Both the position numbers and the translations under genes were made by a program. Below, in pieces: positions 42,461-58,419 of a stretch of DNA of 64,000 nt. Numbering within the stretch: the stretch's first letter is position 1; the number at the start of each line of letters is the position of its first letter. The notes under the pieces were generated by a model, which worked only from the letters and a program-made list of their open reading frames with translations, did not search any database and was not told the DNA's origin. The stretch is from Candidatus Omnitrophota bacterium (lineage in GTDB: Bacteria > Omnitrophota > Gorgyraeia > Zapsychrales > JAKLDJ01): the NCBI GenBank assembly GCA_022703585.1, contig JAKLDJ010000005.1, forward strand, positions 5,353 to 69,352, in the 5' to 3' direction.

Positions 42461-43234
42461 CTATTTCGCCATTTTCTGATCATAATCAATAACCGGCTTT
42501 GTCCAAGGCGTTTGCTGATTAATCACCGCCAATTCCAGCGGACAAGAATTAGCCGGCACGGAAAGCGCGAACATCACCATATCGGCAACCGTCTCGGGAG
42601 ACATCAAACGTTCTTTTTGTTCCTGGGTAATATTCGCCAAGTGGTCAGTTAAGTCGCTGTCGACCACGCCGGGAAGGATCGAGGTAATCTTGATCCCCCG
42701 GTCGCGCATTTCCCAGAAAAGCCCTTTTAAAAATGCCCTCAATCCCACCTTAAGCGAACTATAGGTTAAAAATGTTTTCGGCAGCGGATCACATAACGTC
42801 GAACCAGAAACCATATTAATAATCGCCCCTTCTTTTCGCTCGATCATGTGGTTGATAACCAAACGAATCAGGCGCACATAGCCCAAATAATTGGTGTGGG
42901 CGAGTTTTTCGATATCCTCCAGCGGCTGTTTTTCAAACGGGTATTGACTGGAAACACCGGCATTATTAATAAGGATATCAATATTCTTAAATTCCTTGAT
43001 CGCCGTATCAACCAGATTCTTTAAATCATCTAACTTGCTGACATCGGTCGGAACGCCGATGACTTTAACTTTATACTTTGAAGAAAGTTCTTTTGCGGTT
43101 TCATCCAAAGTTTCTTTGGTGCGCGCCGCCAAAACCAGATTAACCCCGGCCTGTGCCAAGCGTACCGCCACCGCCTTGCCTATCCCGCGACTGGCGCCGG
43201 TAATAATTGCGCATTTTCCTTTGAGATTTGACAT
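42461..43234 (-). CDS. SDR family oxidoreductase (FabG-like ketoreductase)
   Basis: 257 aa; it has TGASRGIGKAVAV, NNAG and YSSLKVGLRAF (YxxxK). Confidence 0.8.
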   Translation of the reverse strand: MSNLKGKCAIITGASRGIGKAVAVRLAQAGVNLVLAARTKETLDETAKELSSKYKVKVIGVPTDVSKLDDLKNLVDTAIKEFKNIDILINNAGVSSQYPFEKQPLEDIEKLAHTNYLGYVRLIRLVINHMIERKEGAIINMVSGSTLCDPLPKTFLTYSSLKVGLRAFLKGLFWEMRDRGIKITSILPGVVDSDLTDHLANITQEQKERLMSPETVADMVMFALSVPANSCPLELAVINQQTPWTKPVIDYDQKMAK

Positions 43235-43256: not shown

Positions 43257-44396
43257 TTACGTTTCTTCCGGAATAATTTTCTTTAAGAACAACGCTAAAA
43301 CCAGCATTAAAATTCCGATCACCAAAAACGTGATCCCAAAACTCTTTTCAACAAATACCCCGCTAATAAAAACGCCGATCCCTCCAGCGACAAACCGCAA
43401 ACTTGAATTTAAACTCGCCAGCTCGGAGCGGTATTGTTCGGGAAAATCGGTCAGCACGGTTGAAATCCCGTTATGCCCAATACTCCAACCGGCCGCGAAT
43501 ACGACAAAAATAACGGCGACCGCCTTGGCCGGAAGCATTGCCGATAACGCAATCGTGGCCGCCGCTAGCATCACGATTCCGGCCTGGCAAGACTTAATAC
43601 GTCCCTTTTTGTCTGTCAAATAACCGCCCACATTCTGCCCCACGGCACCGCTAACAGCAATTAAAGCAAATAATAAGCTAATAGTCAACTGATTAAAATG
43701 ATACATCCTGGACAGAAAAACCCCCAGCCAGCGGTCCACGCTATGATATAGTAGACTTATTATTAATATAAAGATAAATATATGTAGAATCTTCCTTTCC
43801 TTAAAAAGAATTGAATAATCTACATTTCCTTGCACCCTTCCTAAATAATCACCCCTGTCAATAAAAAGACATCCCGCGGCTACCAGCCCAATCAAGGATG
43901 GAACCAAAAAGAGCCACCGCCAAGAGGCAAAACCGCTTAGAATGATCCCGCTTAAGGCCGCGACAAAGCTAAAGCTAAAGAATAGCCCTACCACCCGGCC
44001 CCGGACGTGGTTTTCATATAATTTTCCGATTAAAATAAGTCCCAAAGGAACCACCCCTGCCCCGGCGATACCCGTAATAATGCGTAGTATCAAGATCGGC
44101 TCAATGGCATTTGCTTTGGCGCACAGAAAATTTGCCAACGAGAATACGACCATACTCGTCACCATGATCGTTTTAATGGAAAATCGTTTTGCCAGAGGCG
44201 CATAAAGGAGGGCACCCAGGCCGTAAGGAATCATGTAAAAGGGGATGATTTTTGAGGCGACGAGATCGAGAATGCCCAAGTCGTTGCTGATGGATGGAAT
44301 GGTGGCGGTTAACGCCGAGACATTAAAGGAAATAGCCGCGTTTTGCAGGCAGAGAAGAAAAAGGATAAATTTTTTGTGGTTGATTTTGAACCTCAC
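43257..44396 (-). CDS. MFS transporter
   Basis: 379 aa with ~12 predicted TM helices and an MFS-like loop motif. Confidence 0.7.
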   Translation of the reverse strand: MRFKINHKKFILFLLCLQNAAISFNVSALTATIPSISNDLGILDLVASKIIPFYMIPYGLGALLYAPLAKRFSIKTIMVTSMVVFSLANFLCAKANAIEPILILRIITGIAGAGVVPLGLILIGKLYENHVRGRVVGLFFSFSFVAALSGIILSGFASWRWLFLVPSLIGLVAAGCLFIDRGDYLGRVQGNVDYSILFKERKILHIFIFILIISLLYHSVDRWLGVFLSRMYHFNQLTISLLFALIAVSGAVGQNVGGYLTDKKGRIKSCQAGIVMLAAATIALSAMLPAKAVAVIFVVFAAGWSIGHNGISTVLTDFPEQYRSELASLNSSLRFVAGGIGVFISGVFVEKSFGITFLVIGILMLVLALFLKKIIPEET

Positions 44397-44487: not shown

Positions 44488-44940
44488 TTATTTCTTTGCG
44501 GCCAAACCCGCTTCTTTTTCAATCACTTCCTTAAAGATCTGCATATTCTTTGTGGAATGTTGATTAACAAACCCCTCCACTTTCTCGTCGTTAAATTTGG
44601 CCTTGGGGTCCATGGCAAAATCCTGAATCCAGACCATCTCAACACCGTCGGGAGTTTCATTATAAAGCCAGATGATTTTCATATACTTAAACGGAAACAT
44701 CGGCTCCCAGCGTGAAGCGTAAGCAAATTTCAAATCCTTGTACAGCCAGCGCTTGGAAACCCATGATTTATTCTCGTCGTCGGTTAAGCGAAATGTGATT
44801 TCGTTCCCCTTCTTTTCCAAAACTTCGGCTTTGACATATTCCTTGCCGAAGAGCGAACTCCATCTCGGAATGTCATTCGAAATATCAAAAACTAAGCTGT
44901 ACGGAGCGTTGATAGTAATAACGTTTCTGGTGTGGCCCAT
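44488..44940 (-). CDS. SRPBCC superfamily protein (polyketide cyclase/dehydrase-like)
   Basis: 150 aa with a Bet v1-like profile (N-terminal beta strands, long C-terminal helix). The family assignment rests on overall pattern only. Confidence 0.5.
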   Translation of the reverse strand: MGHTRNVITINAPYSLVFDISNDIPRWSSLFGKEYVKAEVLEKKGNEITFRLTDDENKSWVSKRWLYKDLKFAYASRWEPMFPFKYMKIIWLYNETPDGVEMVWIQDFAMDPKAKFNDEKVEGFVNQHSTKNMQIFKEVIEKEAGLAAKK

Positions 44941-45962: not shown

Positions 45963-46766
45963 TTATTCTACCATGGCAACGACTCTGGTCCAGCCCGCCC
46001 CAGCGTTTCTTACCTTCACGGGAAAGCAACTTACGGTAAATCCGTAATCCTTGGGGATCGCGCCTAAATTTCCCATGCGCTCCATATGGCAATATTCCCG
46101 TCGCCGGCCCAAGAAATGCGAAGGCCATATCTTCGACTTATCTTTCGTGCTTAAAAATTCTTTAAACATATTAAAGCATGGGCGGTCAAGGCCGATGGTA
46201 TCGATCCCCATCATCTTCACGCCCTGGTCTAAAATATATTCTACCGCATCCGGCATCATCCCGACATACTTATTGACATAATCATCCGTTCCTAGCAATT
46301 TGTCCCCATTGGTCCAGATGAGCACGATGTCCATCGGTTTTATTTTGTAATTAATTTTCTTAAGGGCCTCCTCGACCTGCTTTTTGTCGATAACATCCGG
46401 ATATTTTAGGTGGGTAAAATCAAGCCGCACGCCGTTACCGTAGCACCACTCCAGCGGTACATCCATAATCTGTTTGGCGGGCTTGCCCTCGCATTTACTT
46501 CCGTAATGAAACGGGGCATCCACGTGAGTGCCCATGTGCACCGAGGCATTAACAATTTCGAGAGAGAGCATTTCTCCGTCGGGAATCTCGCTGGATTTGG
46601 CCACACGTTCGCCCTTGTCAAATTTTTCCTGGCCCTGGGGCTGTTTACTCATCACCACCCAGTTAAAGTGCTCTACCCCTTCCTGGTGGCTGATGCGGTC
46701 GATCTTTGCGGCATGGGTTTCCAGAAGCGTGTCGTCAATGGGAAGACTGAGGTCGATGATTTTCAT
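45963..46766 (-). CDS. Putative cyclase family protein (kynurenine formamidase-like, PF04199-like)
   Basis: 267 aa; HMGTHVDAPFHY matches the HxGTHxDxPxH metal-binding signature of the family. Confidence 0.65.
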   Translation of the reverse strand: MKIIDLSLPIDDTLLETHAAKIDRISHQEGVEHFNWVVMSKQPQGQEKFDKGERVAKSSEIPDGEMLSLEIVNASVHMGTHVDAPFHYGSKCEGKPAKQIMDVPLEWCYGNGVRLDFTHLKYPDVIDKKQVEEALKKINYKIKPMDIVLIWTNGDKLLGTDDYVNKYVGMMPDAVEYILDQGVKMMGIDTIGLDRPCFNMFKEFLSTKDKSKIWPSHFLGRRREYCHMERMGNLGAIPKDYGFTVSCFPVKVRNAGAGWTRVVAMVE

Positions 46767-46851
46767 TTTGAGCTTTCAGCTTTCAGCTCTCAGCTTTCAG
46801 CAGCTGTCAGCTAATGCTTTTGCTGGCTGCTGAAGGCTGCTGACTGACAGC
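46767..46851. repeat. Palindromic intergenic repeat of the GCTTTCAGC/GCTGAAAGC family
   Basis: GAGCTTTCAGCTTTCAGCTCTCAGCTTTCAGCAGCTGTCAGCTAATGCTTTTGCTGGCTGCTGAAGGCTGCTGACTGACAGC. Confidence 0.8.
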
Positions 46852-47088
46852 TTAATTTACCCCTTTCGCTTTTAAAATGCTAATAATCTCATTAAACGTA
46901 TGCGTCTTTTTAACCTCGTTGTCGGCCAGCGGGATACCAAACTCTTTCTTGAGCCCGACGGAAATCTCCACCATTTCAGTCGAGTCAATCCCCAGCGCCT
47001 GGTCGAGCTTGACGTCCGGCTTTATCTCATTGGGGTTAACATCCAGGACTTTCTTAAAAATGCCTTTTGCTCTATCTTCAACACTCAT
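46852..47088 (-). CDS. Acyl carrier protein
   Basis: 78 aa; LGIDSTEMVE is the phosphopantetheine-attachment motif (DS(L/T)). Confidence 0.8.
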   Translation of the reverse strand: MSVEDRAKGIFKKVLDVNPNEIKPDVKLDQALGIDSTEMVEISVGLKKEFGIPLADNEVKKTHTFNEIISILKAKGVN

Positions 47089-47112: not shown

Positions 47113-48345
47113 TTATGGCTTCTCAACAATTAATGCGCAGTTAATCCCTCCGCGGCCTCGGGAGATAATCAGCGCTTTTTTAATTTCCTTAGCCTGCGCC
47201 TTATTCGGACAGTAATCGAGATCACATTCCGGGTCAGACGTCGAATAGTTGATCGTCGGCGGAACCAGGCTGTTTTCCATCGCCAGAATCGTGGTAATAA
47301 GATCCAGCGCGCCGGAAGCCCCCAGAAGATTTCCAAACATCGATTTAGGCGCCGAGACGGGAATTTTTTTGGCATGACTGTTAAACGCCAGCTTGATCCC
47401 CTTAGTCTCGGTCGTGTCCCCAATCTTTGTTCCTGCCCCGTCCGCACAAATGTAATCAATTTCAGAAGGGCTTACTCCCGCATCATCAAGGGCTATCTTA
47501 ATGGCACGGCCCAGCTCTTTGCCGTCGGAAGCCGGTTCAATGTGGTCCACGCCGTCGGTGGTCGTGCCGTAGCCGATAATATTAGCGTACACACGGGCAT
47601 TTTTTTGTTTAACCCGTTCGCGCGACTCTAAGATCAAAATACCCGCCCCTTCACCGATCGCAAATCCGTCGCGGGTTTTATCAAAAGGCCGATAGGCGCT
47701 TTGGGGTAAATGATTGCGCTTGGTCAGCATCCCTGAGGTATTGCAGCACAAAAGCGCATACGGCGACACCGGAGCCTCCATGCCTCCGGCTAAAATAAAA
47801 TCATTCTTGCCGTGATTAAGATTTTTTGCGGCATAGGCAATCGCCATTAAAGAACTTGCCCGGTCGGAAACAACGGTCTTGCTGTAACCCTTGATACCGT
47901 ACTGAATCGAAATTTGCCCCTGCGGCGCCGCCGGAAACCAGGCTGAAGCCATAAATGGACTCACCCCTTCACGGCCCTCCAAATACATATCACGCAGTTC
48001 GGTTTCGGCATACAGCCAGCCGCCGATCGCGTTACCCGCAAAGATCCCGACGCGCTTTAAATCTTCCTTGGTCATATCAAGCTTGGCATCTTGAATCGCC
48101 ATTTCGGAAGCCACCAGCGCCATATGCGAAAAAAGGTCGATCTTCTTTAAAAGTCTCGATGAGACCTGGCTGTAAACTTCCAGCTCCTTGACCTGACCGG
48201 CAATATGCGACGGATAAAGCGATGACTCAAACCGATCGATATTGCTCACCATTGAGTGCCCGGATTTGATATTGGCCCAAAAGACCCTTTTGTCAATACC
48301 GCTCGGGGACACAACCCCCAAACCTGTAATCGCTATTTTTTCCAT
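47113..48345 (-). CDS. Chain-length-factor-like beta-ketoacyl synthase paralogue (KS-beta) with all three catalytic residues substituted
   Basis: It has the KAS fold throughout. The Cys position reads SDRASSL (no Cys). The His positions read CADGAGTKIGD (His to Asp) and FGNLLGASGA (His to Asn). The likely start is Met 48345 (MEKIAITGLGVV), preceded by RBS AAGGAAGG. The ORF-track start at 48429 would overlap the upstream KS by 73 nt. Confidence 0.7.
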   Translation of the reverse strand: MEKIAITGLGVVSPSGIDKRVFWANIKSGHSMVSNIDRFESSLYPSHIAGQVKELEVYSQVSSRLLKKIDLFSHMALVASEMAIQDAKLDMTKEDLKRVGIFAGNAIGGWLYAETELRDMYLEGREGVSPFMASAWFPAAPQGQISIQYGIKGYSKTVVSDRASSLMAIAYAAKNLNHGKNDFILAGGMEAPVSPYALLCCNTSGMLTKRNHLPQSAYRPFDKTRDGFAIGEGAGILILESRERVKQKNARVYANIIGYGTTTDGVDHIEPASDGKELGRAIKIALDDAGVSPSEIDYICADGAGTKIGDTTETKGIKLAFNSHAKKIPVSAPKSMFGNLLGASGALDLITTILAMENSLVPPTINYSTSDPECDLDYCPNKAQAKEIKKALIISRGRGGINCALIVEKP

Positions 48346-48356
48346 TTGCCTTCCTT

Positions 48357-49616
48357 TTATTTTTCGAACCTTCTTAGAACCATCGACGAATGCACGCCGG
48401 AAAAACCGCTTGAGGTCTTCAGCATGCAATTGATTTTCTTGTTTCTCGCCTTATTGGGAATATAATCCAAGTCGCACTCGGGATCGGGAAATTCCTGATT
48501 GATTGTCGGAGGCAATATATTGCGCTCGAAAATAAGAGCGCAAACCGCCAGCTCCACCCCATTAGCCGCCGCCAAGGGGTGGCCAATCATTGATTTTAGA
48601 GAACTAATCGGAATCTTGTAGGCGTATTCCCCGAGCGCTTGTTTATAGGCATTGGTTTCAAAGACATCGTTTTGCCGCGTCGAAGAACCGTGGGCATTAA
48701 TATAATCAAGGTCTTCGGGTTTAACATTCGCGTCTTTAAGAGCGAGCAAAATCGAGTCACGCATGGCATCGCCTTCGGATGGCAAATCCGTCATATGAAA
48801 GGCATTGCAGGTCGTACCGAATCCTAAAACCTCACAATAGATCCGTGCCCCGCGGTTTAACGCATGCTGGAGTTCTTCCAAGATTAGAATCCCGCAGCCC
48901 TCGGACGCCACAAAACCGTTTCTCTTGGCATCAAACGGCCTCGAGGCCTTTTCCGGCATATCATTGTGCACCGATAAAACGTTGACCACATCAAAAGCCC
49001 CCAGCGTAATCGGAGTAATCGGCGCTTCACTGGCCCCCGCGATCATAACATCGGCGTCCCCGTCCTGGATTGCTTCTAATGAAAACCCAACCGCATCCGT
49101 TCCGGCGGTGCAACCGGTTGAAATCGTATTACAAACACCCTTTAAGCCATACTTAGCGGAAATTTCGCTTGACGGCGTATTAAACATCGCGGCATCGTAG
49201 AGATCCGGCCTTACGCCCTTAGGGTCAATGGGTAATTTGCCGCTGTCCGTCACCAAAGCAAATTCTTCTTCCATGTATTTCGTTCCGCAAATTGCGTTGG
49301 CTAATGAAATACCCATTCGCTCTTTGTTCACTTTTGATAAATCCAATTTTGCATCCTCCAGTGCCTCGCGTGCCGCCACCATGGCAAACTGGACATAGCG
49401 ATCCATACGGACGACCTCGTCGGAATTAAGCCCCGATTTAAACGGGTCGAAATCCCTGACCTGGGCGGCAATTTTTGTATTAAACATCGAGACATCAAAT
49501 TCGGTCACCCGTTTAACGCCCGAGACACCGTTGATCATCCCCTTCCAGCAGGCCTCGTTTCCGACGCCATTAGGGGAAATAAGCCCTACCCCTGTTACCA
49601 CCACTCTTCTTTTCAT
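48357..49616 (-). CDS. Beta-ketoacyl-ACP synthase (active KS-alpha-like)
   Basis: 419 aa with catalytic Cys (ISTGCTAGTDA) and both His (NAHGSSTRQND; IGHPLAAANG). Confidence 0.85.
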   Translation of the reverse strand: MKRRVVVTGVGLISPNGVGNEACWKGMINGVSGVKRVTEFDVSMFNTKIAAQVRDFDPFKSGLNSDEVVRMDRYVQFAMVAAREALEDAKLDLSKVNKERMGISLANAICGTKYMEEEFALVTDSGKLPIDPKGVRPDLYDAAMFNTPSSEISAKYGLKGVCNTISTGCTAGTDAVGFSLEAIQDGDADVMIAGASEAPITPITLGAFDVVNVLSVHNDMPEKASRPFDAKRNGFVASEGCGILILEELQHALNRGARIYCEVLGFGTTCNAFHMTDLPSEGDAMRDSILLALKDANVKPEDLDYINAHGSSTRQNDVFETNAYKQALGEYAYKIPISSLKSMIGHPLAAANGVELAVCALIFERNILPPTINQEFPDPECDLDYIPNKARNKKINCMLKTSSGFSGVHSSMVLRRFEK

Positions 49617-50279
49617 TTATTTTCTCCGTTTCAGTTTCTTTGCTTTAGAAATCTTTGATTTTGCACCGACCGCTTTTTTATTTTTTTGCGCCCCCAAAAC
49701 TCCTTCGAGGCGTTCGAGCTTAAACCGGTTTCCCCCCATGGGACAGGTAAGCGTATTGATCTGATTTTGCGGATTCATATGTTTATAATTGGCGCCATGA
49801 TACAAGGCATACACCGCCGGAAACATCATGGCATAGGCCGTGGCACAAAAGTTCGCAGGTGTTTTTAATCCGTCGATCTCGAAGGTTTGCCCCAGTTTGT
49901 AACCGCAGGTGCAACCCTTTCCCATAACCTCATAGATGCTGGCCCGCAATTTTGGCTTCTTGTTTTTATCCGCCTGATTCTTTTTCGTTACTACCACATT
50001 GCCGTCTGCATTCAAAAGCTCGACCAAGAACTTCATCTTGGCGTGATCCGGACAGGTCACGATCGCGGACGAGGCATTCTCTAAATCGTTAAATTGCGCC
50101 CCAAAGGTTAGCGCGTACAAGGTGGGAAAGACATTCTGCGCGATTCCTAAACAAAAATGTTTGGGGGCATGGGTAAAATCATCCAGAATAAATTGCTGCC
50201 CGACAAAATAGTCGTGGTAGCAATAACCGCTATTCTCGACGATTGTTAGCCTTAATTTTGGAAATATACCTGGGGCCAT
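49617..50279 (-). CDS. Tandem-duplicated TIGR04076-like domain protein
   Basis: 220 aa with two homologous halves. The first is KLRLTIVENSGYCYHDYFVGQQFILDD...CLGIAQNVFPTLYALTFGAQF. The second is KLRASIYEVMGKGCTCGYKLGQTFEIDGL...FCATAYAMMFPAVYALYHGANY. The family call is from memory of the TIGR04076 pattern and is tentative. Confidence 0.45.
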   Translation of the reverse strand: MAPGIFPKLRLTIVENSGYCYHDYFVGQQFILDDFTHAPKHFCLGIAQNVFPTLYALTFGAQFNDLENASSAIVTCPDHAKMKFLVELLNADGNVVVTKKNQADKNKKPKLRASIYEVMGKGCTCGYKLGQTFEIDGLKTPANFCATAYAMMFPAVYALYHGANYKHMNPQNQINTLTCPMGGNRFKLERLEGVLGAQKNKKAVGAKSKISKAKKLKRRK

Positions 50280-50290
50280 TTTTCTTCCTC

Positions 50291-51289
50291 TTAAATAAGA
50301 TTAAATTCTTTCTTTATTTCTTCGACTGAAAAAAACTTTCCGGAATTTTCAACCTCATGGACCATCTCAACGACCTTGCGGTTTAGCGGGACTTTAAGCC
50401 CGCTATGCTTCGCCAAAAGAACTATTTCGCCGTTAATATAATCGATCTCACTCACCTTTTTACGCAGAATGCTTTGTAAAATCGAGCCGTAGAGCGGCTC
50501 TTTGCTTAAAGTCGTCATTGTCTTGTTGATAATCCCCGCCGCTTGGTCAACCGGCATAGTTACCAGCCCCAGTATTCGCTCGACGGGGAAGTGCGGCAAA
50601 GAAACAAGCCCGACACCGACATTGTGCACAGCCTCAACGCCTTCTTTGAGCAATAAAACGCTCAAACGGCACAAATGCATATCCGCATAAGTTTCCTGCA
50701 TCGGCTTACCGGTTAACGCCGGCAGGCAGTTGTTGAAATTAACAAAAAGTTTCAGCCATTTCATGCCCATGATATCGGGCGCGATAACAACCGCGAATGC
50801 CTTGCGCACAATTTCATAAATGTCCGAAACGACATGATCATTCATTGAAAACGGTTTTCCGATAACCCAGTCACCCTCAAAGTTAAACGTCACTTCGCCG
50901 GGATTGGTGTAGGTTGCCCCAAACATAACAATGCTGGATACAATCTTTTCCTTTTCTAAATGCCCGCTTAAAATATTGTCCGCCTGAACACCGTTTTGGG
51001 TAGTCAGAATAATTGCATTATCCAGAAACTCGCAATTGTCCGTGTAAGCAGTCTCAAGGTCCTGGGTCTTAACCGTAAAAATAACCAAATCGTACTCGCG
51101 GTCAAGCCGCACCAAGCTGTTTAAATGAAAAACCTCCTCGCCTCGGACACCTTTAATACGCAAACCGCTGCTGCGGATCGCCTGCACCTGTTGCGGCTTA
51201 CCGATCAAGGCAACGTCTTCTCCTGCCTTGGATAAATACGCCGCCACCACCGACCCGATGGCCCCCGCTCCGATAACAGCAATTTTCAT
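50291..51289 (-). CDS. 2-dehydropantoate 2-reductase (ketopantoate reductase/ApbA) family oxidoreductase
   Basis: 332 aa; it has the N-terminal Rossmann motif MKIAVIGAGAIGS and an overall KPR-like length. Confidence 0.6.
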   Translation of the reverse strand: MKIAVIGAGAIGSVVAAYLSKAGEDVALIGKPQQVQAIRSSGLRIKGVRGEEVFHLNSLVRLDREYDLVIFTVKTQDLETAYTDNCEFLDNAIILTTQNGVQADNILSGHLEKEKIVSSIVMFGATYTNPGEVTFNFEGDWVIGKPFSMNDHVVSDIYEIVRKAFAVVIAPDIMGMKWLKLFVNFNNCLPALTGKPMQETYADMHLCRLSVLLLKEGVEAVHNVGVGLVSLPHFPVERILGLVTMPVDQAAGIINKTMTTLSKEPLYGSILQSILRKKVSEIDYINGEIVLLAKHSGLKVPLNRKVVEMVHEVENSGKFFSVEEIKKEFNLI

Positions 51290-52122: not shown

Positions 52123-53592
52123 TTATACGTACAGGTCTTTCTTGGTCGAGGTGGCCTCAAACTTTGATATATTACTCATAAAATCCTGCACGCAAAGTTT
52201 GGCTAAATTGTCATAATCGCTTTCCATAATCCGGTGAATGCGTTCAGGCTTTGAGTAAAATTCACGCATGCACCAGCTGCCCAAACGCCCCACGTCTTCT
52301 ATAGATAAATGTTTTGTGGGGATTACAGGATGAAGAAAATCCCATTCCTTAAGATTGATCTTGCGCGGATTGACCCAGCCGTTATCAATGGCCCTCTTCC
52401 AGAGAACCGAACCCGGGACCGGAGTCACGTAATCCAGCGCCAGGATATCCGGATCGATTTGGTCGGCGACATGCGCGCGCTCTTTAATAGATGCTTCGGT
52501 GTCGTTTTCCATGCCGATCAAAACCGTGCCCACCGTCGCGATATTGTTTTCGCGTAATTTATCGATTGTGGTTTTAATCTGCTGGAGCGTAACCTTCTTA
52601 CCGATTTTCTGTAATTCCGCGTCCGAGGACACCTCCACCCCCACCAAACCCATGAAAAGACCGGCCTTGGCCATTAAGGGATACAGGTCCAGTTGGTTCG
52701 TCCAGTCGTCGGCCCTCCCTAAACAAACCCATTTGATCTTGATGCCTCTTTTAATTTTTTCTTCGCAAAATTCTTTCATGACCTCACGGCTGACGTTAAA
52801 GGCATCATCTTGGATAACGACAACCTTAACACCGTATTTCTTTTCGAGCAATTCCAGCTCATCAACGATTCTTTGGGCCGAATGCCCGCGCCAGGAAGTA
52901 AAATCCTTTTTACTCGAACGCGGATCATACAGGCTCCATTCATAACAGAAATTGCATCCCCCCGGACATCCGCGTGACGTCATAAGTTCCGCAAACGGTT
53001 TCCAGTAAGTATGCCCGACGTAGCGGTCCATGGGAAATAAATCGTACGCCGGCATCGGCAGGACATCAATATTAGGAATAAGCGAACGATGCGGCCCGAC
53101 GACGACCTTTCCGCCTTCTCGCGAGGCCAAACCCGGAATATCCTTAAATTCCCGGGTTTTGTTTTTGTGATTTGAAATCAGATCCGCGAGAGTTAATTCT
53201 CCTTCGCCGATCAAAATATGGTCGATTTGAGGATAATCCTCCATGCATTCAACGTAAAATGCCGAATACCACAAGCCGCCCATAACCGTGATCGTCTTGG
53301 GTAAAACCTCTTTGATGCGCTTCGCGGTTTCATTAAAATGCCACAGGACCGCGAGACCGCCGGTCGAATGCAGCAGATCGCCAAAAACAGCAAAATCCGG
53401 CTTTATCTTTTTAACCTCGTCGATCATTTGATCGTAGGTCAAGTCAAGCGCCTTGGCATCCAGGACCGCAACTTCGGCCAGGCCTTTTTCTCTGATATAG
53501 GCCGCGAGCTGGGCATAGAATTGGTTAGCTGCTTTATGATTGCCGTGCGTTACCCATGAACCCATCGGTGGGGTAATAAATAAAACTTTCAT
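52123..53592 (-). CDS. B12-binding domain radical SAM enzyme
   Basis: 489 aa. The N-terminus is a cobalamin-binding Rossmann-like region. The radical SAM cluster motif is SRGCPGGCNFC (CxxxCxxC). Confidence 0.8.
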   Translation of the reverse strand: MKVLFITPPMGSWVTHGNHKAANQFYAQLAAYIREKGLAEVAVLDAKALDLTYDQMIDEVKKIKPDFAVFGDLLHSTGGLAVLWHFNETAKRIKEVLPKTITVMGGLWYSAFYVECMEDYPQIDHILIGEGELTLADLISNHKNKTREFKDIPGLASREGGKVVVGPHRSLIPNIDVLPMPAYDLFPMDRYVGHTYWKPFAELMTSRGCPGGCNFCYEWSLYDPRSSKKDFTSWRGHSAQRIVDELELLEKKYGVKVVVIQDDAFNVSREVMKEFCEEKIKRGIKIKWVCLGRADDWTNQLDLYPLMAKAGLFMGLVGVEVSSDAELQKIGKKVTLQQIKTTIDKLRENNIATVGTVLIGMENDTEASIKERAHVADQIDPDILALDYVTPVPGSVLWKRAIDNGWVNPRKINLKEWDFLHPVIPTKHLSIEDVGRLGSWCMREFYSKPERIHRIMESDYDNLAKLCVQDFMSNISKFEATSTKKDLYV

Positions 53593-53675: not shown

Positions 53676-55154
53676 TCAAAACCAGCTGGCGGCCAACGGC
53701 ATGCCACCCGGGGTTTTATCGACGCAAACATGTTTCACTTGCGTGTATTCAAAGAGCCCTTCCAGGCCCAATTCCCGCCCCATGCCGCTTTGTTTATAAC
53801 CGCCAAACGGCGCCTCATTATAAAAACCGCCGTAGGTGTTTACCCAAACCGTCCCGGCCTTGATTTTCTTTGCCACACGGTTTGCTTTGTCTAAATCCCT
53901 GGACCAAACACATGCCGCGAGGCCAAATTTTGTATCGTTGGCGATTTTGACCGCCTCGTCTTCGCCGGAGAATTTGATAACAGCCAAGACCGGCCCAAAT
54001 ATTTCCTCCTGGGCAATCGCCATAGAATTATCAACGTCAGCAAAGATGGTCGGCTCGATGTAAAAACCTTTTTCTCTTCCCTGAACAACCGCGCGTTTCC
54101 CTCCGCACATCAATTTAGCCCCTTGCGCGGATCCTTTTTGTACAAAATTTAATACGTTTTGCAACTGTTGCTCATTGGCCAAGGGCCCAAAATCCGTCGA
54201 GTAATCGCGCGCATCGCCTACTTTTAACTTCTTGGTTCGCTCAACCAGGGCGAGCAAAAACTTATCATAAATTTTATCTTCCAGCAAAAGTCTGGAGCCG
54301 GCCGTGCACATTTGTCCCTGATTCATAAAAATAGCGGACATGGTACCGCCTAAGGCAGCGTCAAAATCACAATCGGCAAAAACGATGTTGGGCGATTTGC
54401 CGCCTAGTTCCAGAGTTAACTTTTTTGTATTCAGGGCGGCAAATCGCATGACCTCTTTGCCGGTTTCGGTGCCGCCGGTAAAACTGATCTTATCTACCAA
54501 GGTGCTGCTGATTAATTCAGCGGTTACATTGTGGTCACGGCTGGTAATAAAATTAAAAACGCCTTTAGGCAATCCGGTTTCGTTTATAATTTCCGCCAGC
54601 CGTGCCGTCGACACACTCGCCTGCGACGAAGGCTTAAAAATAACCGTGTTTCCGGCTATTAACGCCGGGGCTACCTTCCAGCCAAACATAATTAAAGGAT
54701 AATTCCAGGGGATAATACAACCGACCACCCCCACCGGCTCGCGCAGCAAAGTACTTTTAACCGGAGCGGCCACGTTAATTTCTTTTTCTAAATCTAAAGC
54801 AATATTGCCGAAATATTCAAATGTATCGGCGCAGGTGGGGACATCGATAAAGGTCGCGTGCTTTGTCGTCTTGCCGACGTCTAAAGTTTCCAATTCGGCT
54901 AATTCTTTTGAATATTCGCGGATTTTTTGCGCTATCGAAATTAAATATTTTCCCCGCTCTTTGACCGATAGCCGGGACCAGGCGCCGTGATCAAATGATG
55001 CACGCGCAACCTCAATCGCTGTCTTCATATCGGCAACCGTCGCATCGGCCACTTGTGCAAAGACTTCCCCGTCCGAAGGATTAACAGCATCAAAATATTT
55101 ATTGCTGCCGGATGCCTTTATTTCACCGTTAATAAACAGTTGATATTTTTTCAT
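53676..55154 (-). CDS. NAD(P)-dependent aldehyde dehydrogenase
   Basis: 492 aa; it has an ALDH glutamate region (LELGGKSP) and the catalytic Cys region (NQGQMCTAGSR). Confidence 0.85.
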   Translation of the reverse strand: MKKYQLFINGEIKASGSNKYFDAVNPSDGEVFAQVADATVADMKTAIEVARASFDHGAWSRLSVKERGKYLISIAQKIREYSKELAELETLDVGKTTKHATFIDVPTCADTFEYFGNIALDLEKEINVAAPVKSTLLREPVGVVGCIIPWNYPLIMFGWKVAPALIAGNTVIFKPSSQASVSTARLAEIINETGLPKGVFNFITSRDHNVTAELISSTLVDKISFTGGTETGKEVMRFAALNTKKLTLELGGKSPNIVFADCDFDAALGGTMSAIFMNQGQMCTAGSRLLLEDKIYDKFLLALVERTKKLKVGDARDYSTDFGPLANEQQLQNVLNFVQKGSAQGAKLMCGGKRAVVQGREKGFYIEPTIFADVDNSMAIAQEEIFGPVLAVIKFSGEDEAVKIANDTKFGLAACVWSRDLDKANRVAKKIKAGTVWVNTYGGFYNEAPFGGYKQSGMGRELGLEGLFEYTQVKHVCVDKTPGGMPLAASWF

Positions 55155-55157
55155 TAA

Positions 55158-56177
55158 TTATTCAATTCCTGCGTTGGTCCAAACTTCAAAAATCCGGCTG
55201 CAGGGCGCGTACCATTTTGAGATCCTGGCAAAATCGCCGCGCAGATTCATTTTCTTCTGCGTCGTCGCTACAAAGGGATCGATTTCGCGGTTAAATACAG
55301 CCCGCCACACACCCTCGGAAGCCGAAATCAGAAATTCGGCATTTTCGTCGCTGCCGGTTTTTATGATCCGTCCGTCTTTAAAACTAAAGCTGTATACCTG
55401 GCCGGTTTCGTTGAGCTTAACCGCCAAATCCATGGTCATTTGCGTCTTTTGGCCGAGTTCTTTAAGCGGTGCGTCATTATTGACAAGTTTTACAATTTCA
55501 TCCATCTGCTCTTTTGAAAAGAGTTTGTACTTCTTGGTTTGCGACCCCTGGCCCGTCGCCTGGTGACTGACGGCTGGTGACTGTTGACTGACGGCTGTTG
55601 ACTCCGCCTTATACAATCGGCTTATCACGTCAATCTTCACCGCCTCTTCAAGTCCCTGGATAAGCAGAAAACAGTCAAAAAGAGTGTTCCCCATCGCCAC
55701 AGCTCCGTGATTGCGTAAAACCATAATGCTATTTTTCTTAAGCGCCGCGATAACCGGAGCAACATCCGTGACTGACGGCGTATGCTGCTCGACCGATTCA
55801 ATCTTTCCCAAATAAAGCCTCGCCTCAAAGGTCGACGGTGTTAATTCGACATTGACACTATAAAATGCATTTGTATACGTTGTGTGAGTATGGATAATGG
55901 CTTTTGCATCGGGAAAATTATTATAGATTTCTGTATGTAGCGGTTTCTCGCTTGAAGGCTTACCCTCACCGATAACATTGCCTTTAAGGTCAAGCAGGAC
56001 AATCTCGTCCGCGCTTAATCTCCCCAGGCAGGTATTGCGCCCGGTTAAAAGAATTTTATCCCCATCAACGCGGCAGCTGATGTTGCCGTTTAAACCTGTT
56101 GCCAGATTCTTATCCCAGAGAAGTTTCCCGGCTTCGATCATGTCATTCTTTAATTGCAGAATTGATTTTTCGCTCAT
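55158..56177 (-). CDS. Class II aldolase/adducin-family protein (MtnB/fuculose-phosphate-aldolase-like) fused to a C-terminal SCP2-like domain
   Basis: The N-terminal half has the class II aldolase metal-binding HTH (AIIHTHTTY). The C-terminal ~110 aa is SCP2-like (DENAEFLISASEGVWRAVFNREIDPF...LRGDFARISKW). The likely start is Met 56177 (MSEKSILQ), overlapping the upstream stop as ATGA. Confidence 0.65.
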   Translation of the reverse strand: MSEKSILQLKNDMIEAGKLLWDKNLATGLNGNISCRVDGDKILLTGRNTCLGRLSADEIVLLDLKGNVIGEGKPSSEKPLHTEIYNNFPDAKAIIHTHTTYTNAFYSVNVELTPSTFEARLYLGKIESVEQHTPSVTDVAPVIAALKKNSIMVLRNHGAVAMGNTLFDCFLLIQGLEEAVKIDVISRLYKAESTAVSQQSPAVSHQATGQGSQTKKYKLFSKEQMDEIVKLVNNDAPLKELGQKTQMTMDLAVKLNETGQVYSFSFKDGRIIKTGSDENAEFLISASEGVWRAVFNREIDPFVATTQKKMNLRGDFARISKWYAPCSRIFEVWTNAGIE

Positions 56178-56656
56178 TGATAAATCCTCGTTATGTAAAC
56201 CTGCGGAACCCATTCGACCAAAGGAACGTATCCCTTAATTCCTTTGGGGGCTACCCGTGTACCGTTAAAGTACAATATCTCCTCACTTTTCCCCACCGAA
56301 ACAGTTTTACGGCGAGAAGTAACGAGATTAACCGCTACTTTGTGCCGCTTGGCCAAGACCGCCAAAATAAGAGATCCGATATCGCAGGTGGCGCCATTTT
56401 TATAACAAGCCTGACAACCGATCCAGACTTCTTTAACCAGACCTTTAAAAAACAGAAATCCCGCCATGTTATCCGCGATAACAACCGGTTTGATCTTTCG
56501 TTTGAGCAACTCTTGAGATAAAATCTTTGCCCCTTCCAGGCGCGGCCTCGACTCCAGGATAAAAACCGATTTAGCCCCCTTTTTCTTAAATTGATCCAAG
56601 AGAGAACCTTCCACAAGGCCGTGAACAAGAATAATCGATTTTTTCTTAATTAACAT
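56174..56656 (-). CDS. Truncated eIF-2B/MtnA (e2b2) family paralogue (C-terminal domain only)
   Basis: 160 aa. It matches the e2b2 C-domain pattern: VHGLVEGS...ILESRPRLEGAKILSQEL...VVIADNMAGFL...VWIGCQACYKNGATCDIGSLILAVLAKRH. Confidence 0.55.
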   Translation of the reverse strand: MLIKKKSIILVHGLVEGSLLDQFKKKGAKSVFILESRPRLEGAKILSQELLKRKIKPVVIADNMAGFLFFKGLVKEVWIGCQACYKNGATCDIGSLILAVLAKRHKVAVNLVTSRRKTVSVGKSEEILYFNGTRVAPKGIKGYVPLVEWVPQVYITRIYQ

Positions 56657-57626
56657 TGATCGCTATGGGTTGTGTGATCAGCTCATGGGGTACAACATCA
56701 AATCCGGGATAGAAACCTTCCACCCCTGGAGACACAACTTTCTTCCCGGAAAAACTCAGCAATTCTTCCGGGTCTCTTATTTCAATAGGGATATCCTCCC
56801 CACGCGCAATCTTTTTTGACGGCTGCGTCAGGGCATGAAAGGGAATACCAAACTCCTTAGCTAAAACCGCGATTTGGTAGGTCCCGATTTTATTGGCAAT
56901 ATCCCCATTGGCGCAGGAACGGTCAGAACCGACGATAACCCGGTTAATCTTGTTGCCGCGTAACAAAAGCCCGACCGCATTATCGGCGACCAAGGTCACA
57001 TCCGCCCCCGCCAACTTTAATTCCCAGCAGGTCAGCTTGGCCCCCTGAAAATAGGGACGGGTTTCGGTGGCAAAAAATCGCACCGTCTTTCTTTGCGCCT
57101 TGCATATCCGCGCCGCCATAGCCAGCTCACCGCTGACGTTGCAATGAGTCAGAATCGTCTCTTTATCCTGAATGACCGAGGCGATTTGTTCGACACGCTG
57201 TAATCGGCGAATCCTAATCCCCATTAAAAAACCGTTAATATTCTGGCAAAGGAATCCTACTAAATCTTTTTTCTGCGCTACCGCCTGATGCGCCCAGCCT
57301 ACAACCATAGCCGTCACTTCAGAAAAAGGAAATGTAGGCCGGCTGGCGTTTAAGGCTGTGGCGGTTTTTTGTAAAACTTTTAGCAATACTTTTGGGGAAC
57401 TCTTTTTATTTTTATCCAGTACCAGCAAAAACGTATTTAAAACCACCAAAAATTGCCCGAAGGCACGCGTCTTCATCTGGCGGATACATGCAACAGCCTG
57501 CTTGGTATTTCTTACCTTGACGTAGACTAGCCGCCCGGGCAAAAGGGTTTCATCAATGACCCAAAGGGTATTGCCCTTTAACTGCGCCGGCCAAAAGAGA
57601 GGAGATTCCCAAACCTTTTTTTGCAT
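56646..57626 (-). CDS. e2b2 family sugar-phosphate isomerase (methylthioribose-1-P / 5-deoxyribose-1-P isomerase-like, MtnA-like)
   Basis: 326 aa. It has ILTHCNVSGELAMAARI...ATETRPYFQGAKLTCWEL and the signature GSDRSCANGDIANKIGTYQIAVLAKEFGIPFH. Confidence 0.7.
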   Translation of the reverse strand: MQKKVWESPLFWPAQLKGNTLWVIDETLLPGRLVYVKVRNTKQAVACIRQMKTRAFGQFLVVLNTFLLVLDKNKKSSPKVLLKVLQKTATALNASRPTFPFSEVTAMVVGWAHQAVAQKKDLVGFLCQNINGFLMGIRIRRLQRVEQIASVIQDKETILTHCNVSGELAMAARICKAQRKTVRFFATETRPYFQGAKLTCWELKLAGADVTLVADNAVGLLLRGNKINRVIVGSDRSCANGDIANKIGTYQIAVLAKEFGIPFHALTQPSKKIARGEDIPIEIRDPEELLSFSGKKVVSPGVEGFYPGFDVVPHELITQPIAINVN

Positions 57627-57630
57627 CCGA

Positions 57631-58395: not shown

Positions 58396-58419
58396 AGACT
58401 ATTTCCTTTCGCTTTGGTT

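What the first reader, a model, noticed from the sequence alone, without database searches (positions are those of the whole stretch)
47113..49616. KS-alpha / KS-beta pair in which the second KS has lost Cys and both His of the catalytic triad (chain-length-factor-like), overlapping a REP hairpin and translationally coupled
The upstream KS (48357-49616) retains Cys-His-His. The downstream paralogue has the same fold but reads Ser/Ala at the Cys position, Asp at the first His and Asn at the second.

That pattern marks heterodimeric KS/CLF systems (type II PKS, aryl polyene, ladderane candidates), not FabF/FabB. The substitution set here, with no Gln at the Cys position, differs from the canonical actinomycete CLF Gln. 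That suggests a non-decarboxylating partner. The CLF start is preceded by AAGGAAGG directly after the KS stop.
Basis: partly seen in the sequence, partly recalled or inferred. Interest (0 to 1): 0.7.

Follow-up and report, generated by a model that had tools for sequence, protein, structure and literature searches.

The report
Type II polyketide ketosynthase/chain-length-factor pair
This is the core enzyme pair (an active ketosynthase plus a catalytically dead partner with arginine where the active-site cysteine should be) of an uncharacterised aromatic-polyketide gene cluster that is strongly conserved in uncultivated Omnitrophota bacteria; it belongs to a known kind of system rather than being a new one.

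Summary
The pair is real. On the minus strand lie a 419-aa ketosynthase (48357-49616; Cys169/His309/His346 intact) and, 11 nt further on behind an AAGGAAGG ribosome-binding site, a 410-aa paralogue (47113-48345), followed by a 78-aa ACP. Three independent alignments give the paralogue Arg162/Asp302/Asn339 at the triad positions. The "REP hairpin" lies outside the interval, at 46762-46862.

Losing both His is normal for chain length factors (act CLF is Gln/Asp/Arg). Only the Arg is non-canonical, and it is not unique. The protein falls in a clade (bootstrap 100) of Arg/Lys-type CLFs that includes the presumed clostrubin CLF of Clostridium beijerinckii/puniceum, a Ktedonobacter racemifer CLF and an Archangium CLF. 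The upstream KS groups with act KS-alpha, AntD and the KS next to the Clostridium CLF (bootstrap 100).

The neighbours complete the published "ancestral" KS-CLF-ACP-TcmN-OxyN architecture: a TcmN-type aromatase/cyclase with its pocket residues kept, and an OxyN-type cyclase. The source is a Candidatus Omnitrophota MAG. The cluster is syntenic in about 24 Omnitrophota species genomes, and Arg/Asp/Asn is invariant in 121 homologues.

Verdict: a new, uncharacterised member of a known kind. Heterodimer formation and the product are inferred, not shown.

The parts
48357..49616 (-). KS-alpha (419 aa), the catalytic ketosynthase. It has Cys169, His309, Lys341 and His346, plus the KS-alpha-type insertion DSGKLPIDPKG.
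   Evidence: Pfam PF00109 and PF02801. Best solved relatives are act KS 1tqy_A (2e-120) and AntD 6smo_B (7e-114). It sits in the KS-alpha clade with bootstrap 100. It scores below the fabF equivalog cutoff, 465.5 against 493.75.
48349..48356 (-). Shine-Dalgarno-like AAGGAAGG between the KS stop (48357-48359) and the CLF ATG (48343-48345).
   Evidence: Sequence read directly.
47113..48345 (-). CLF / KS-beta (410 aa), a catalytically dead KS paralogue with Arg162, Asp302 and Asn339 at the Cys/His/His positions. Lys334 is kept. It carries the CLF motifs GGW, AWFPAA, ADGAG and SRGRGG.
   Evidence: AF2 model: pLDDT 88, pTM 0.91, TM 0.95 to B. subtilis FabF. It is 72-79% identical across Omnitrophota orthologues.
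46852..47088 (-). Acyl carrier protein (78 aa) with the phosphopantetheine-site motif GIDSTEM (Ser36). It has its own AAAGGAGG ribosome-binding site.
   Evidence: PF00550, 1.9e-9. Sequence read directly.
46762..46862 (.). REP-like extragenic palindrome made of 7-nt GCTGAAA/GCTGATA units, between the ACP gene and the cyclase gene.
45963..46766 (-). OxyN/DpsY-type cyclase (PF04199) with the metal motif H77-x-G-T-H-x-D-x-P-x-H87.
   Evidence: It is 55-87% identical in Omnitrophota loci and 46-48% identical in the Clostridium and Desulfobacterota clusters.
44488..44940 (-). Monodomain TcmN/WhiE-type aromatase/cyclase (SRPBCC). The equivalents of TcmN Tyr35, Trp65, Ser67 and Arg69 are conserved.
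   Evidence: PDB sequence search: polyketide cyclases 3tl1/3tvr/2kf2 at about 1e-27 and TcmN 2rez at 4e-24, with alignments.
43257..44396 (-). MFS transporter, syntenic with the cluster.
42461..43234 (-). SDR-family reductase, a possible ketoreductase. It is syntenic in Omnitrophota and absent from the Desulfobacterota version.
38925..39836 (-). Amidohydro_2 family protein (a decarboxylase/hydrolase family). It follows the SDR directly in most orthologous loci. It is also present in the Clostridium and Desulfobacterota clusters.
49617..50279 (-). Tandem TIGR04076 repeat protein (220 aa). Its stop codon abuts the KS start codon. It is present in only a few orthologous loci.
50291..51289 (-). 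Ketopantoate-reductase-like (ApbA) NAD(P) oxidoreductase. It is syntenic upstream of the KS in Omnitrophota and Desulfobacterota.
52123..53592 (-). B12-binding radical SAM enzyme (BchE/HpnJ-like, below all curated cutoffs). It is syntenic with the cluster in both phyla.
53676..59946 (-). Conserved upstream block: aldehyde dehydrogenase, class II aldolase fused to SCP2, two IF-2B/MtnA-like proteins, a PNP_UDP_1 phosphorylase and a long-chain-acyl-CoA-ligase-like AMP-binding enzyme.
   Evidence: The same set, with AFOR in place of the aldehyde dehydrogenase, flanks the Desulfobacterota cluster.

Best explanation
The two genes encode the KS-alpha/CLF heterodimer of a minimal type II (iterative, aromatic) polyketide synthase of the non-actinobacterial "ancestral" clade, carried by a Candidatus Omnitrophota genome.

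Proposed mechanism:
- KS-alpha (Cys169/His309/His346) does all the chemistry. It is acylated on Cys169, decarboxylates malonyl-ACP and performs the iterative Claisen condensations on the 78-aa ACP encoded next door.
- The CLF has the same thiolase fold but no nucleophile and no His pair. Its vestigial active site is occupied by an invariant Arg162, flanked by acidic Asp161 and, in this subclade, Asp302.
- The CLF therefore serves as the obligate structural partner. It completes the dimer interface and the acyl tunnel and so sets chain length, without loading or decarboxylating substrate itself.
- The nascent poly-beta-ketone is then folded by the TcmN-type aromatase/cyclase and the OxyN-type cyclase. 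It is probably tailored by the SDR, the Amidohydro_2 protein and the B12-radical SAM enzyme, and handled by the MFS transporter.

Shown here: sequence features, family placement, conservation and synteny.
Inferred: heterodimer formation, the inertness of the CLF site, the aromatic product and the roles of the tailoring genes.
For: 1. The triad is intact in the KS and replaced by Arg/Asp/Asn in the CLF, invariant in 121 homologues.
2. In the NJ tree (200 bootstraps) the KS groups with act KS, AntD, the KS next to the Clostridium CLF and the Archangium KS (100%). The CLF groups with the Clostridium beijerinckii/puniceum CLF (presumed ClrB, 46% identity), Ktedonobacter, Archangium and Desulfobacterota CLFs (100%). 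Housekeeping FabFs, including Omnitrophota ones, fall outside.
3. Derived CLF motifs are shared with the actinorhodin CLF and absent from FabF and KS-alpha. These are an acidic residue before the Cys position, A-D-G at the first His, AWF, and [S/A]-R-G in place of the GFGG Phe.
4. KS-alpha has the KS-alpha-specific insertion.
5. The KS gene lies directly upstream of the CLF gene in all 21 orthologous loci that have enough upstream sequence. The dead CLF is about as conserved (72-79%) as the active KS (73-82%) and more so than the flanking genes.
6. The cluster has an ACP, a TcmN-type ARO/CYC with the Tyr35/Trp65/Ser67/Arg69 equivalents, and an OxyN-type cyclase with its metal motif. This matches the published KS-CLF-ACP-TcmN-OxyN ancestral architecture (PMC7693217).
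7. The AF2 model of the CLF is confident (pLDDT 88) except for residues about 110-140, the dimer-interface helix-loop-helix. The same region (residues 110-130) is disordered in the anammox FabF-mut crystallised without its partner (10.64898/2026.05.19.726425).
8. Related pairs, AntD/E and Ktedonobacter KraA/B, were expressed in E. coli as soluble heterodimers, with co-purification shown for AntD/E (PMC6638757).
Against: - No direct test of heterodimerisation was possible, because there was no multimer prediction and no coordinates to inspect.
- By raw sequence score the CLF is closer to FabF (319 bits) than to the act CLF (231 bits). Its best structural match is B. subtilis FabF.
- Monophyly of Arg-type and act-type CLFs is unresolved (12% bootstrap). 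The tree is distance-based on 32 sequences only.
- The canonical Gln is absent.
- The very high conservation across a phylum is unusual for a secondary-metabolite cluster and could point to a different kind of product, as could the association with a B12-radical SAM enzyme, an SCP2 domain and a fatty-acyl-ligase-like enzyme.
- Equating P0137 with ClrB rests on organism names and cluster content, not on an accession match.
Confidence: 0.78

Rival explanations
1. A fatty-acid-type KS/CLF-like heterodimer, analogous to the anammox amxFabF2/amxFabF-mut pair of the putative ladderane cluster. It would build an unusual lipid that the neighbouring B12-radical SAM enzyme then remodels.
For: - A B12-binding radical SAM gene is syntenic with the pair in two phyla.
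- An SCP2 lipid-binding domain and a long-chain-acyl-CoA-ligase-like enzyme lie nearby.
- antiSMASH calls "ladderane" clusters in Omnitrophota MAGs (PMC9902471).
- The anammox pair is now shown to be a KS/CLF-like heterodimer (10.64898/2026.05.19.726425).
Against: - The KS sits in the aromatic KS-alpha clade (bootstrap 100).
- TcmN-type and OxyN-type cyclases with intact motifs are conserved in the cluster.
- No FabZ or phytoene-desaturase homologue was found in the Omnitrophota cluster.
- The radical SAM enzyme scores 84 bits against the TIGR04072 (ladderane-type) cutoff of 360.
- Gene order is reversed: here the KS comes first, in anammox the mutated copy comes first. The anammox copy has Val/Thr at the Cys position.
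- The CLF scores lower against both chains of 9s5h than against FabF (254 and 206 bits against 319). I only presume 9s5h to be the anammox heterodimer, since no paper names that entry.
Confidence: 0.07
2. The CLF is not inert. Arg162, with Asp161/Asp302, forms an alternative catalytic or substrate-binding site. It might bind the malonyl carboxylate and promote decarboxylative priming (a "chain initiation factor" without Gln), or select a non-acetate starter delivered by the conserved acyl ligase.
For: - Arg162, Asp302 and Asn339 are strictly invariant in 121 sequences, and Lys334 is retained.
- Arg/Lys recurs at this position across the wider clade, often with Asp/Glu at the first His position.
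- A ligase gene is syntenic with the cluster.
Against: - Invariance is equally expected for a buried structural ion pair.
- In relatives the residue at the first His position varies (Asp, Glu, Ala, Asn, His) while Arg stays.
- Gln-less CLF-type partners (AntE with Asp, the anammox copy with Val/Thr) work with a KS that primes by itself (PMC6638757; 10.64898/2026.05.19.726425).
- No nucleophile is present.
Confidence: 0.12
3. The second gene is merely a decaying FabF duplicate (a pseudo-enzyme without function), and the KS works as an ordinary homodimeric FabF-like elongating synthase.
For: The CLF's best sequence and fold matches are FabFs. The NCBIfam subfamily model PRK07314 is passed by both proteins.
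Against: - The CLF is 72-79% identical across Omnitrophota species, as conserved as the KS, with invariant replacement residues.
- The strict KS-CLF-ACP order holds in every locus.
- Both proteins score below the fabF equivalog cutoff.
- The window has its own FAS-type KS with an intact triad at 20231-21457, next to PlsX, FabD and a FabZ-like gene.
Confidence: 0.02

Closest known systems
Presumed clostrubin type II PKS ClrA/ClrB of Clostridium beijerinckii and C. puniceum
   Same: It is the closest named relative. The CLF is 46% identical and the KS 46-48% identical. It has Arg at the Cys position within the same D-R-A-S motif. It shares the core of KS, CLF, an ACP (there the C-terminal part of a 175-aa ORF), an OxyN-type cyclase (46%), a TcmN-type cyclase (41%) and Amidohydro_2 (29%). 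It also comes from a strict anaerobe.
   Different: The Clostridium CLF keeps the second His (Arg/Glu/His against Arg/Asp/Asn here). That cluster has no B12-radical SAM, KPR-like or nucleoside-salvage-like genes and carries other tailoring genes (DUF362, DUF169, FrsA-like hydrolases). The identification of P0137 as ClrB is inferred from organism names and cluster content.
Actinorhodin KS/CLF (ActI-ORF1/ORF2, PDB 1tqy)
   Same: The KS is 45% identical and is the best solved hit (2e-120). The CLF shares the KS fold, the loss of Cys and both His, and the motifs [D/E]-x, A-D-G-A-G, AWF and R-G. The gene order is KS then CLF.
   Different: The act CLF has Gln161 where this protein has Arg162, and Arg where this has Asn339. 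The CLFs are only 31% identical. A common CLF clade is not resolved in the tree (12% bootstrap).
Non-actinobacterial KS/CLF pairs expressed in E. coli: Photorhabdus AntD/AntE (PDB 6smo/6smp) and Ktedonobacter racemifer KraA/KraB
   Same: AntD is 46% identical to the KS. The CLFs are non-canonical and lack Gln: AntE has Asp according to PMC6638757, and a K. racemifer CLF has Arg. Both pairs were expressed as soluble heterodimers, with co-purification shown for AntD/E (PMC6638757).
   Different: AntE was not aligned here, because its sequence could not be retrieved. The Ktedonobacter CLF keeps both His residues (Arg/His/His) and is 38% identical. It is not confirmed that the Ktedonobacter CLF found here (P0278) is KraB.
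Anammox amxFabF2/amxFabF-mut heterodimer (putative ladderane Cluster I)
   Same: It is an active KS paired with a triad-less paralogue that forms a KS/CLF-like heterodimer. It has a cluster-specific ACP and a cobalamin radical SAM gene nearby. The dead subunit is structurally closest to B. subtilis FabF, as here (10.64898/2026.05.19.726425).
   Different: The dead copy has Val/Thr at the Cys position and is encoded upstream of the KS. Its partners are FabZ and a phytoene-desaturase homologue rather than aromatic cyclases. Sequence similarity to the chains of 9s5h, which I presume to be this heterodimer, is lower than to FabF. The B12-radical SAM enzyme here fails the TIGR04072 cutoff.

Membership tests
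Type II PKS KS-alpha | Intact Cys-His-His catalytic triad (plus the active-site Lys) | tested here: met
   Cys169, His309, Lys341 and His346 in alignments to act KS and AntD.
Type II PKS KS-alpha | Groups with characterised KS-alpha proteins rather than FabF | tested here: met
   Clade with act KS, AntD, the KS next to the Clostridium CLF and the Archangium KS has bootstrap 100/100 (NJ, 200 replicates). Best PDB hits are 1tqy_A and 6smo_B. The protein is below the TIGR03150 fabF cutoff.
Type II PKS KS-alpha | Encoded next to a CLF and a dedicated ACP | tested here: met
   KS-CLF-ACP order in the window and in all 21 orthologous loci with enough sequence.
Chain length factor (KS-beta) | KS fold without the catalytic Cys | tested here: met
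   Full-length PF00109 and PF02801 matches. AF2 model TM 0.95 to FabF. Arg162 is at the Cys position.
Chain length factor (KS-beta) | Conserved Gln at the Cys position (canonical actinomycete CLF, Gln161 in act) | tested here: not met
   Arg162 is invariant in 121 homologues. The act CLF Gln161 was verified against 1tqy_B.
Chain length factor (KS-beta) | CLF-specific sequence motifs shared with characterised CLFs | tested here: met
   An acidic residue precedes the Cys position. A-D-G-A-G lies at the first His. AWF and [S/A]-R-G are also present. All are shared with the act CLF and absent from FabF and KS-alpha.
Chain length factor (KS-beta) | Phylogenetic placement with known CLFs | tested here: inconclusive
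   Bootstrap is 100 with the Clostridium (presumed ClrB), Ktedonobacter and Archangium CLFs. The node joining this clade to act-type CLFs has only 12% support.
Chain length factor (KS-beta) | Forms an obligate heterodimer with KS-alpha and shapes the acyl tunnel | not testable with these tools
   No multimer prediction was available. Indirect support only: strict co-occurrence, equal conservation, and a low-confidence interface segment 110-140 in the monomer model.
Ancestral non-actinomycete aromatic type II PKS cluster (KS-CLF-ACP-TcmN-OxyN; PMC7693217) | TcmN-type aromatase/cyclase with catalytic pocket residues | tested here: met
   3tl1/3tvr at about 1e-27 and 2rez at 4e-24. The Tyr35, Trp65, Ser67 and Arg69 equivalents are conserved.
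Ancestral non-actinomycete aromatic type II PKS cluster (KS-CLF-ACP-TcmN-OxyN; PMC7693217) | OxyN/DpsY-type (PF04199) cyclase | tested here: met
   PF04199 at 3.6e-29, with the motif H-x-G-T-H-x-D-x-P-x-H at residues 77-87.
Ancestral non-actinomycete aromatic type II PKS cluster (KS-CLF-ACP-TcmN-OxyN; PMC7693217) | Produces an aromatic polyketide | not testable with these tools
   The organism is uncultivated and no product data exist.
Anammox ladderane-cluster FabF2/FabF-mut pair | Dead copy encoded upstream of the KS, with Val/Thr at the Cys position | tested here: not met
   Here the KS is upstream and the Cys position is Arg. The anammox features are taken from 10.64898/2026.05.19.726425.
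Anammox ladderane-cluster FabF2/FabF-mut pair | Clustered with an anammox-type FabZ, a phytoene-desaturase homologue and the TIGR04072 B12-radical SAM enzyme | tested here: not met
   No FabZ or desaturase gene in the Omnitrophota cluster. The radical SAM enzyme scores 84 bits against a cutoff of 360.
Housekeeping FabF (KAS II) | Passes the fabF equivalog model and sits in a fab operon | tested here: not met
   KS 465.5 and CLF 404.7 bits against a cutoff of 493.75. The window's FAS-type KS is a different gene at 20231-21457, near PlsX and FabD.

The most novel reading that the evidence does not exclude
The pair may be the core of a lineage-wide, near-housekeeping pathway rather than an ordinary, sporadically distributed antibiotic cluster. 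The pathway would be shared by many Omnitrophota and, rearranged, by Desulfobacterota. In it an Arg-type type II PKS would be coupled to two things. One is a B12-radical SAM enzyme. The other is a nucleoside-derived C2/acid-forming module: phosphorylase, then MtnA-like isomerases, then an SCP2-fused class II aldolase, then an aldehyde-oxidising enzyme, then a fatty-acyl-type ligase. The Gln-less CLF would then reflect priming with a ligase-delivered, non-acetate (possibly lipidic) starter. The product would be a conserved aromatic or phenolic-lipid metabolite with a physiological role, such as redox activity or oxygen protection, in these uncultivated anaerobes.
Probability: 0.2. Interest if true: 0.75.

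Novelty: new member of a known kind. Interest (0 to 1): 0.42.

Why it matters
Type II polyketide synthases outside the actinomycetes are few. They are evolutionarily basal, and some are soluble in E. coli, which makes them useful for engineering.

This locus shows that a candidate phylum known only from metagenomes carries such a system, with three notable properties:
- Its conservation is unusual. KS, CLF and the cyclases are 70-87% identical across about two dozen species genomes, and more than 120 distinct 90%-identity clusters exist in public data.
- Its dead subunit has a fixed Arg/Asp/Asn "triad".
- Its neighbourhood (B12-radical SAM enzyme, SCP2-fused aldolase, aldehyde oxidation, acyl ligase) is conserved across two phyla.

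It also makes one point explicit. An Arg (or Lys) at the former Cys position, rather than Gln, marks the clade of non-actinobacterial CLFs sampled here. The papers I could search do not mention this. It bears on the old question of whether the CLF takes part in decarboxylative priming.

The practical value is a well-defined target for heterologous expression, since the product is unknown. As a discovery about mechanism it is incremental.

Tried and rejected
- Motif regexes to count triad residues were too strict and missed most sequences. A MAFFT column count replaced them.
- The first bootstrap run with Biopython's distance calculator timed out. It was redone with a numpy Kimura-corrected distance and NJ.
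- The 1.84-billion-protein representative search was dominated by multi-KS megasynthases because scores sum over domains. Only the 24 hits shorter than 1000 aa were examined, and only the single-domain ones were informative.
- The genome-contig scan used exact peptide patterns, so it returned only about 25 true orthologues plus ordinary FabFs. It cannot give the fraction of Omnitrophota that carry the cluster.
- AntE, Iga12, ApeC and the anammox sequences could not be retrieved for residue-level alignment. The PDB tool prints only the top five alignments, and FabFs always ranked higher. Statements on them rest on the cited papers.
- PDB entry 9s5h was not found in the literature search. Its link to the anammox preprint is a guess.
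- Ladderane-type and plain-FabF readings were considered and rejected (see rivals).
- The idea that tight KS-CLF translational coupling is a conserved feature was dropped after looking at orthologous spacers.
- Chain length was not predicted. The gatekeeper equivalents (Trp/Ala/Leu, against Phe109/Thr112/Phe116 in act) resemble the Clostridium CLF, but they lie in a poorly modelled region.

Full report
**Anatomy.** All genes of interest are on the minus strand.
- The 419-aa ORF 48357-49616 and the following ORF both carry full-length ketoacyl-synthase N- and C-terminal domains.
- The mechanical ORF list extends the second gene to a TTG at 48429, inside the first gene.
- The sequence shows the KS stop TAA at 48357-48359, then AAGGAAGG (48349-48356), then an ATG at 48343-48345. 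The gene call on the source contig also uses this ATG, giving 410 aa.
- A 78-aa ACP (46852-47088, PF00550, motif GIDSTEM) follows behind its own AAAGGAGG.
- Upstream, the stop codon of a 220-aa tandem TIGR04076 protein abuts the KS start codon.

**The catalytic positions.** The KS has Cys169, His309, Lys341 and His346. For the second protein, three independent alignments agree: Cys becomes Arg162, the first His becomes Asp302, the second His becomes Asn339, and the active-site Lys334 is kept. The alignments are phmmer against Listeria and B. subtilis FabF, MAFFT with the cognate KS and 120 homologues, and a 32-sequence L-INS-i alignment. In all 121 close homologues (75-100% identity) the three residues are invariant, so this is a selected state and not decay.

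**The hairpin.** No REP element overlaps the pair. A REP-like palindrome lies at 46762-46862, between the ACP and the next gene. It folds at -40.9 kcal/mol (z = -3.9). It is built from 7-nt GCTGAAA/GCTGATA units that recur at several other intergenic sites: 18 matches against 0.27 expected.

**Source and conservation.**
- The exact CLF protein is encoded on a 141-kb JGI metagenome contig. NCBI names it from a Candidatus Omnitrophota MAG.
- At least 120 distinct 90%-identity clusters are 75% or more identical to it.
- About 24 species-representative genomes carry the orthologue. Most are labelled Omnitrophota, and some are labelled "uncultured Planctomycetales".
- In those loci the whole neighbourhood is syntenic. 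The KS is 73-82% identical and the CLF 72-79%, both higher than the flanking genes. The KS lies directly upstream of the CLF wherever enough sequence exists.
- The KS-CLF spacer is short here and in some genomes, but reaches 120-630 nt in others. Tight coupling is therefore not a conserved property.

**What family.** The best solved relatives of the KS are the actinorhodin KS-alpha (2e-120) and Photorhabdus AntD (7e-114), ahead of any FabF. By raw score the CLF is closer to FabF (319 bits) than to the act KS (246) or the act CLF (231). Its AF2 model (pLDDT 88, pTM 0.91) superposes best on B. subtilis FabF (TM 0.95).

I verified the act CLF sequence against 1tqy_B. Its triad positions read Gln/Asp/Arg. 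Loss of both His is thus canonical for CLFs, and the A-D-G-A-G motif at the first His is shared.

Further derived motifs are shared by this protein and the act CLF but absent from FabF and KS-alpha:
- an acidic residue before the Cys position (D-R here, E-Q in act);
- AWF (ASAWFPAA here, SFAWFYAV in act);
- [S/A]-R-G in place of the Phe of the GFGG loop.

The KS has the KS-alpha-type insertion DSGKLPIDPKG.

**The Arg is not unique.** Among single-domain hits of an exhaustive representative search, the nearest relatives outside the family (37-46% identity) also have Arg or Lys at the Cys position. Cluster look-ups name them:

| Protein | Source | Triad positions | Identity to window CLF |
|---|---|---|---|
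| P0137 | Clostridium beijerinckii / C. puniceum (clostrubin producers per PMC7693217; presumably ClrB) | Arg/Glu/His | 46% |
| P0278 | Ktedonobacter racemifer | Arg/His/His | 38% |
| P0233 | Archangium violaceum | Arg/Asp/His | 39% |
| P0121 | Desulfobacterota MAGs | Arg/Asp/Asn | 59% |

Their loci are bona fide type II PKS clusters, with the KS directly upstream, a PF04199 cyclase, a Polyketide_cyc protein, an ACP and PPTases.

In an NJ tree with 200 bootstraps:
- the Arg-type CLFs form a clade with 100% support;
- the KS-alpha proteins, including the window KS, form another with 100% support;
- housekeeping FabFs, including four from Omnitrophota, lie outside;
- the node uniting Arg-type and act-type CLFs is unresolved (12%).

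**Cluster content.**
- The 150-aa SRPBCC protein (44488-44940) matches polyketide aromatase/cyclases (3tl1/3tvr at about 1e-27, TcmN at 4e-24). It keeps the equivalents of TcmN Tyr35, Trp65, Ser67 and Arg69.
- The PF04199 protein (45963-46766) keeps the H-x-G-T-H-x-D-x-P-x-H motif.

Together with KS-CLF-ACP this is the "ancestral" non-actinomycete architecture KS-CLF-ACP-TcmN-OxyN described by Ishida et al. (PMC7693217). An MFS transporter, an SDR and an Amidohydro_2 protein are also syntenic. The window separately contains FAS-type genes: PlsX, FabD, a FabZ-like gene, and a KS with an intact triad at 20231-21457. The pair is therefore not the cell's fatty-acid synthase.

**Mechanism proposed.** KS-alpha performs acyl transfer, malonyl-ACP decarboxylation and iterative condensation. 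The CLF is the obligate, catalytically inert partner that completes the interface and tunnel. Arg162, next to Asp161 and Asp302, fills the vestigial pocket. The cyclases then fold the poly-beta-ketone into an aromatic product.

Support for heterodimerisation is indirect:
- strict co-occurrence and equal conservation of the two genes;
- a monomer model that is confident everywhere except the interface helix-loop-helix, residues about 110-140. The same segment (110-130) is disordered in the anammox FabF-mut crystallised without its partner (10.64898/2026.05.19.726425);
- published expression of AntD/E and Ktedonobacter KraA/B as soluble heterodimers, with co-purification shown for AntD/E (PMC6638757).

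The absence of Gln does not by itself predict a phenotype. AntE has Asp at this position and AntD/E is used to make anthraquinones in E. coli (PMC6638757). The anammox heterodimer, whose dead subunit has Val/Thr, decarboxylates malonyl-ACP (10.64898/2026.05.19.726425).

**Rivals.**
- A ladderane/FAS-like reading draws on the syntenic B12-radical SAM gene, the SCP2 domain and antiSMASH "ladderane" calls in Omnitrophota (PMC9902471). It fails on gene order, the residue at the Cys position, partner genes, the TIGR04072 cutoff (84 against 360 bits) and the conserved aromatic cyclases.
- A catalytic role for Arg162 cannot be excluded.
- A decaying FabF copy is excluded by the conservation.

**Wider context, seen in passing.** The Omnitrophota cluster is flanked by a conserved block:
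- a PadR regulator;
- a long-chain-acyl-CoA-ligase-like enzyme;
- a PNP_UDP_1 phosphorylase;
- two MtnA-like IF-2B proteins;
- a class II aldolase fused to SCP2;
- an aldehyde dehydrogenase;
- a B12-radical SAM enzyme;
- two small ORFs;
- a KPR-like reductase.

A Desulfobacterota MAG carries the same set in a different order, with aldehyde:ferredoxin oxidoreductases in place of the dehydrogenase. A third Arg-type cluster has a B12-radical SAM enzyme fused to SCP2. This resembles a 5'-deoxyadenosine/MTA "DHAP shunt". However, the lipid-binding domain, the acid-forming step and the ligase suggest it might feed the PKS. That is untested and is stated only as the novel case.

**Novelty.** KS-CLF pairs from "Candidatus Omnitrophica" already appear in a published catalogue (PMC10132072), and the clade is known from clostrubin, dendrubin, AQ-256 and Ktedonobacter work. 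None of the papers I could search mentions the Arg signature or discusses the Omnitrophota cluster. I therefore rate it a new, uncharacterised member of a known kind. The lead is a moderately interesting one because of its conservation and context.

Noticed in passing
window 53676-60594 (minus strand); also L003-L025 and L085: A conserved block sits upstream of the PKS. It holds a PadR regulator, a long-chain-acyl-CoA-ligase-like enzyme, a PNP_UDP_1 phosphorylase, an MtnA-like IF-2B protein plus a short second IF-2B protein, a class II aldolase fused to an SCP2 lipid-binding domain, and an aldehyde dehydrogenase. It resembles a 5'-deoxyadenosine/MTA DHAP shunt. It travels with the PKS in two phyla, and in the Desulfobacterota version AFOR replaces the aldehyde dehydrogenase. 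It may supply a starter acid.
   Followed up: partly
[not shown]
   Followed up: partly
window 46762-46862, 44420-44475, 36589-36635, 24760-24819, 23691-23722, 11973-11984: A family of REP-like intergenic palindromes is built from 7-nt GCTGAAA/GCTGATA units (18 matches against 0.27 expected). Orthologous loci in other genomes carry different repeat-rich spacers, some between the KS and CLF genes.
   Followed up: partly
window 20231-24740 (minus strand): The window carries FAS-type genes: PlsX (23745-24740), FabD (22713-23666), a FabZ-like ORF and a four-helix-bundle (23S rRNA intervening-sequence type) ORF in between, and a third KS (20231-21457) with an intact Cys168/His299/His336 triad. This KS is only 34-38% identical to the PKS pair.
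   Followed up: partly
window 33131-38624 (minus strand): A complete rRNA operon (16S, tRNA-Ile, tRNA-Ala, 23S, 5S) starts about 300 nt downstream of the Amidohydro_2 gene that ends the conserved cluster.
   Followed up: no
window 39881-41814 and 44962-45882: Two stretches look like window-specific insertions inside the otherwise syntenic cluster. One holds an ORF6N/Rha-like antirepressor, a PC4-like ORF and a 256-aa ORF, between the SDR and Amidohydro_2 genes. The other is a CorA transporter between the two cyclases, shared only with L026.
   Followed up: partly
window 61471-62895 (minus strand): A 474-aa protein combines a FecR domain with a pretoxin HINT domain.
   Followed up: no
window 14318-20258 (minus strand): Two 7TM-HisKA histidine kinases flank an SDR and a shikimate-dehydrogenase-like ORF. 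They lie in the lowest-GC stretch of the window (35-38% against about 46%).
   Followed up: no
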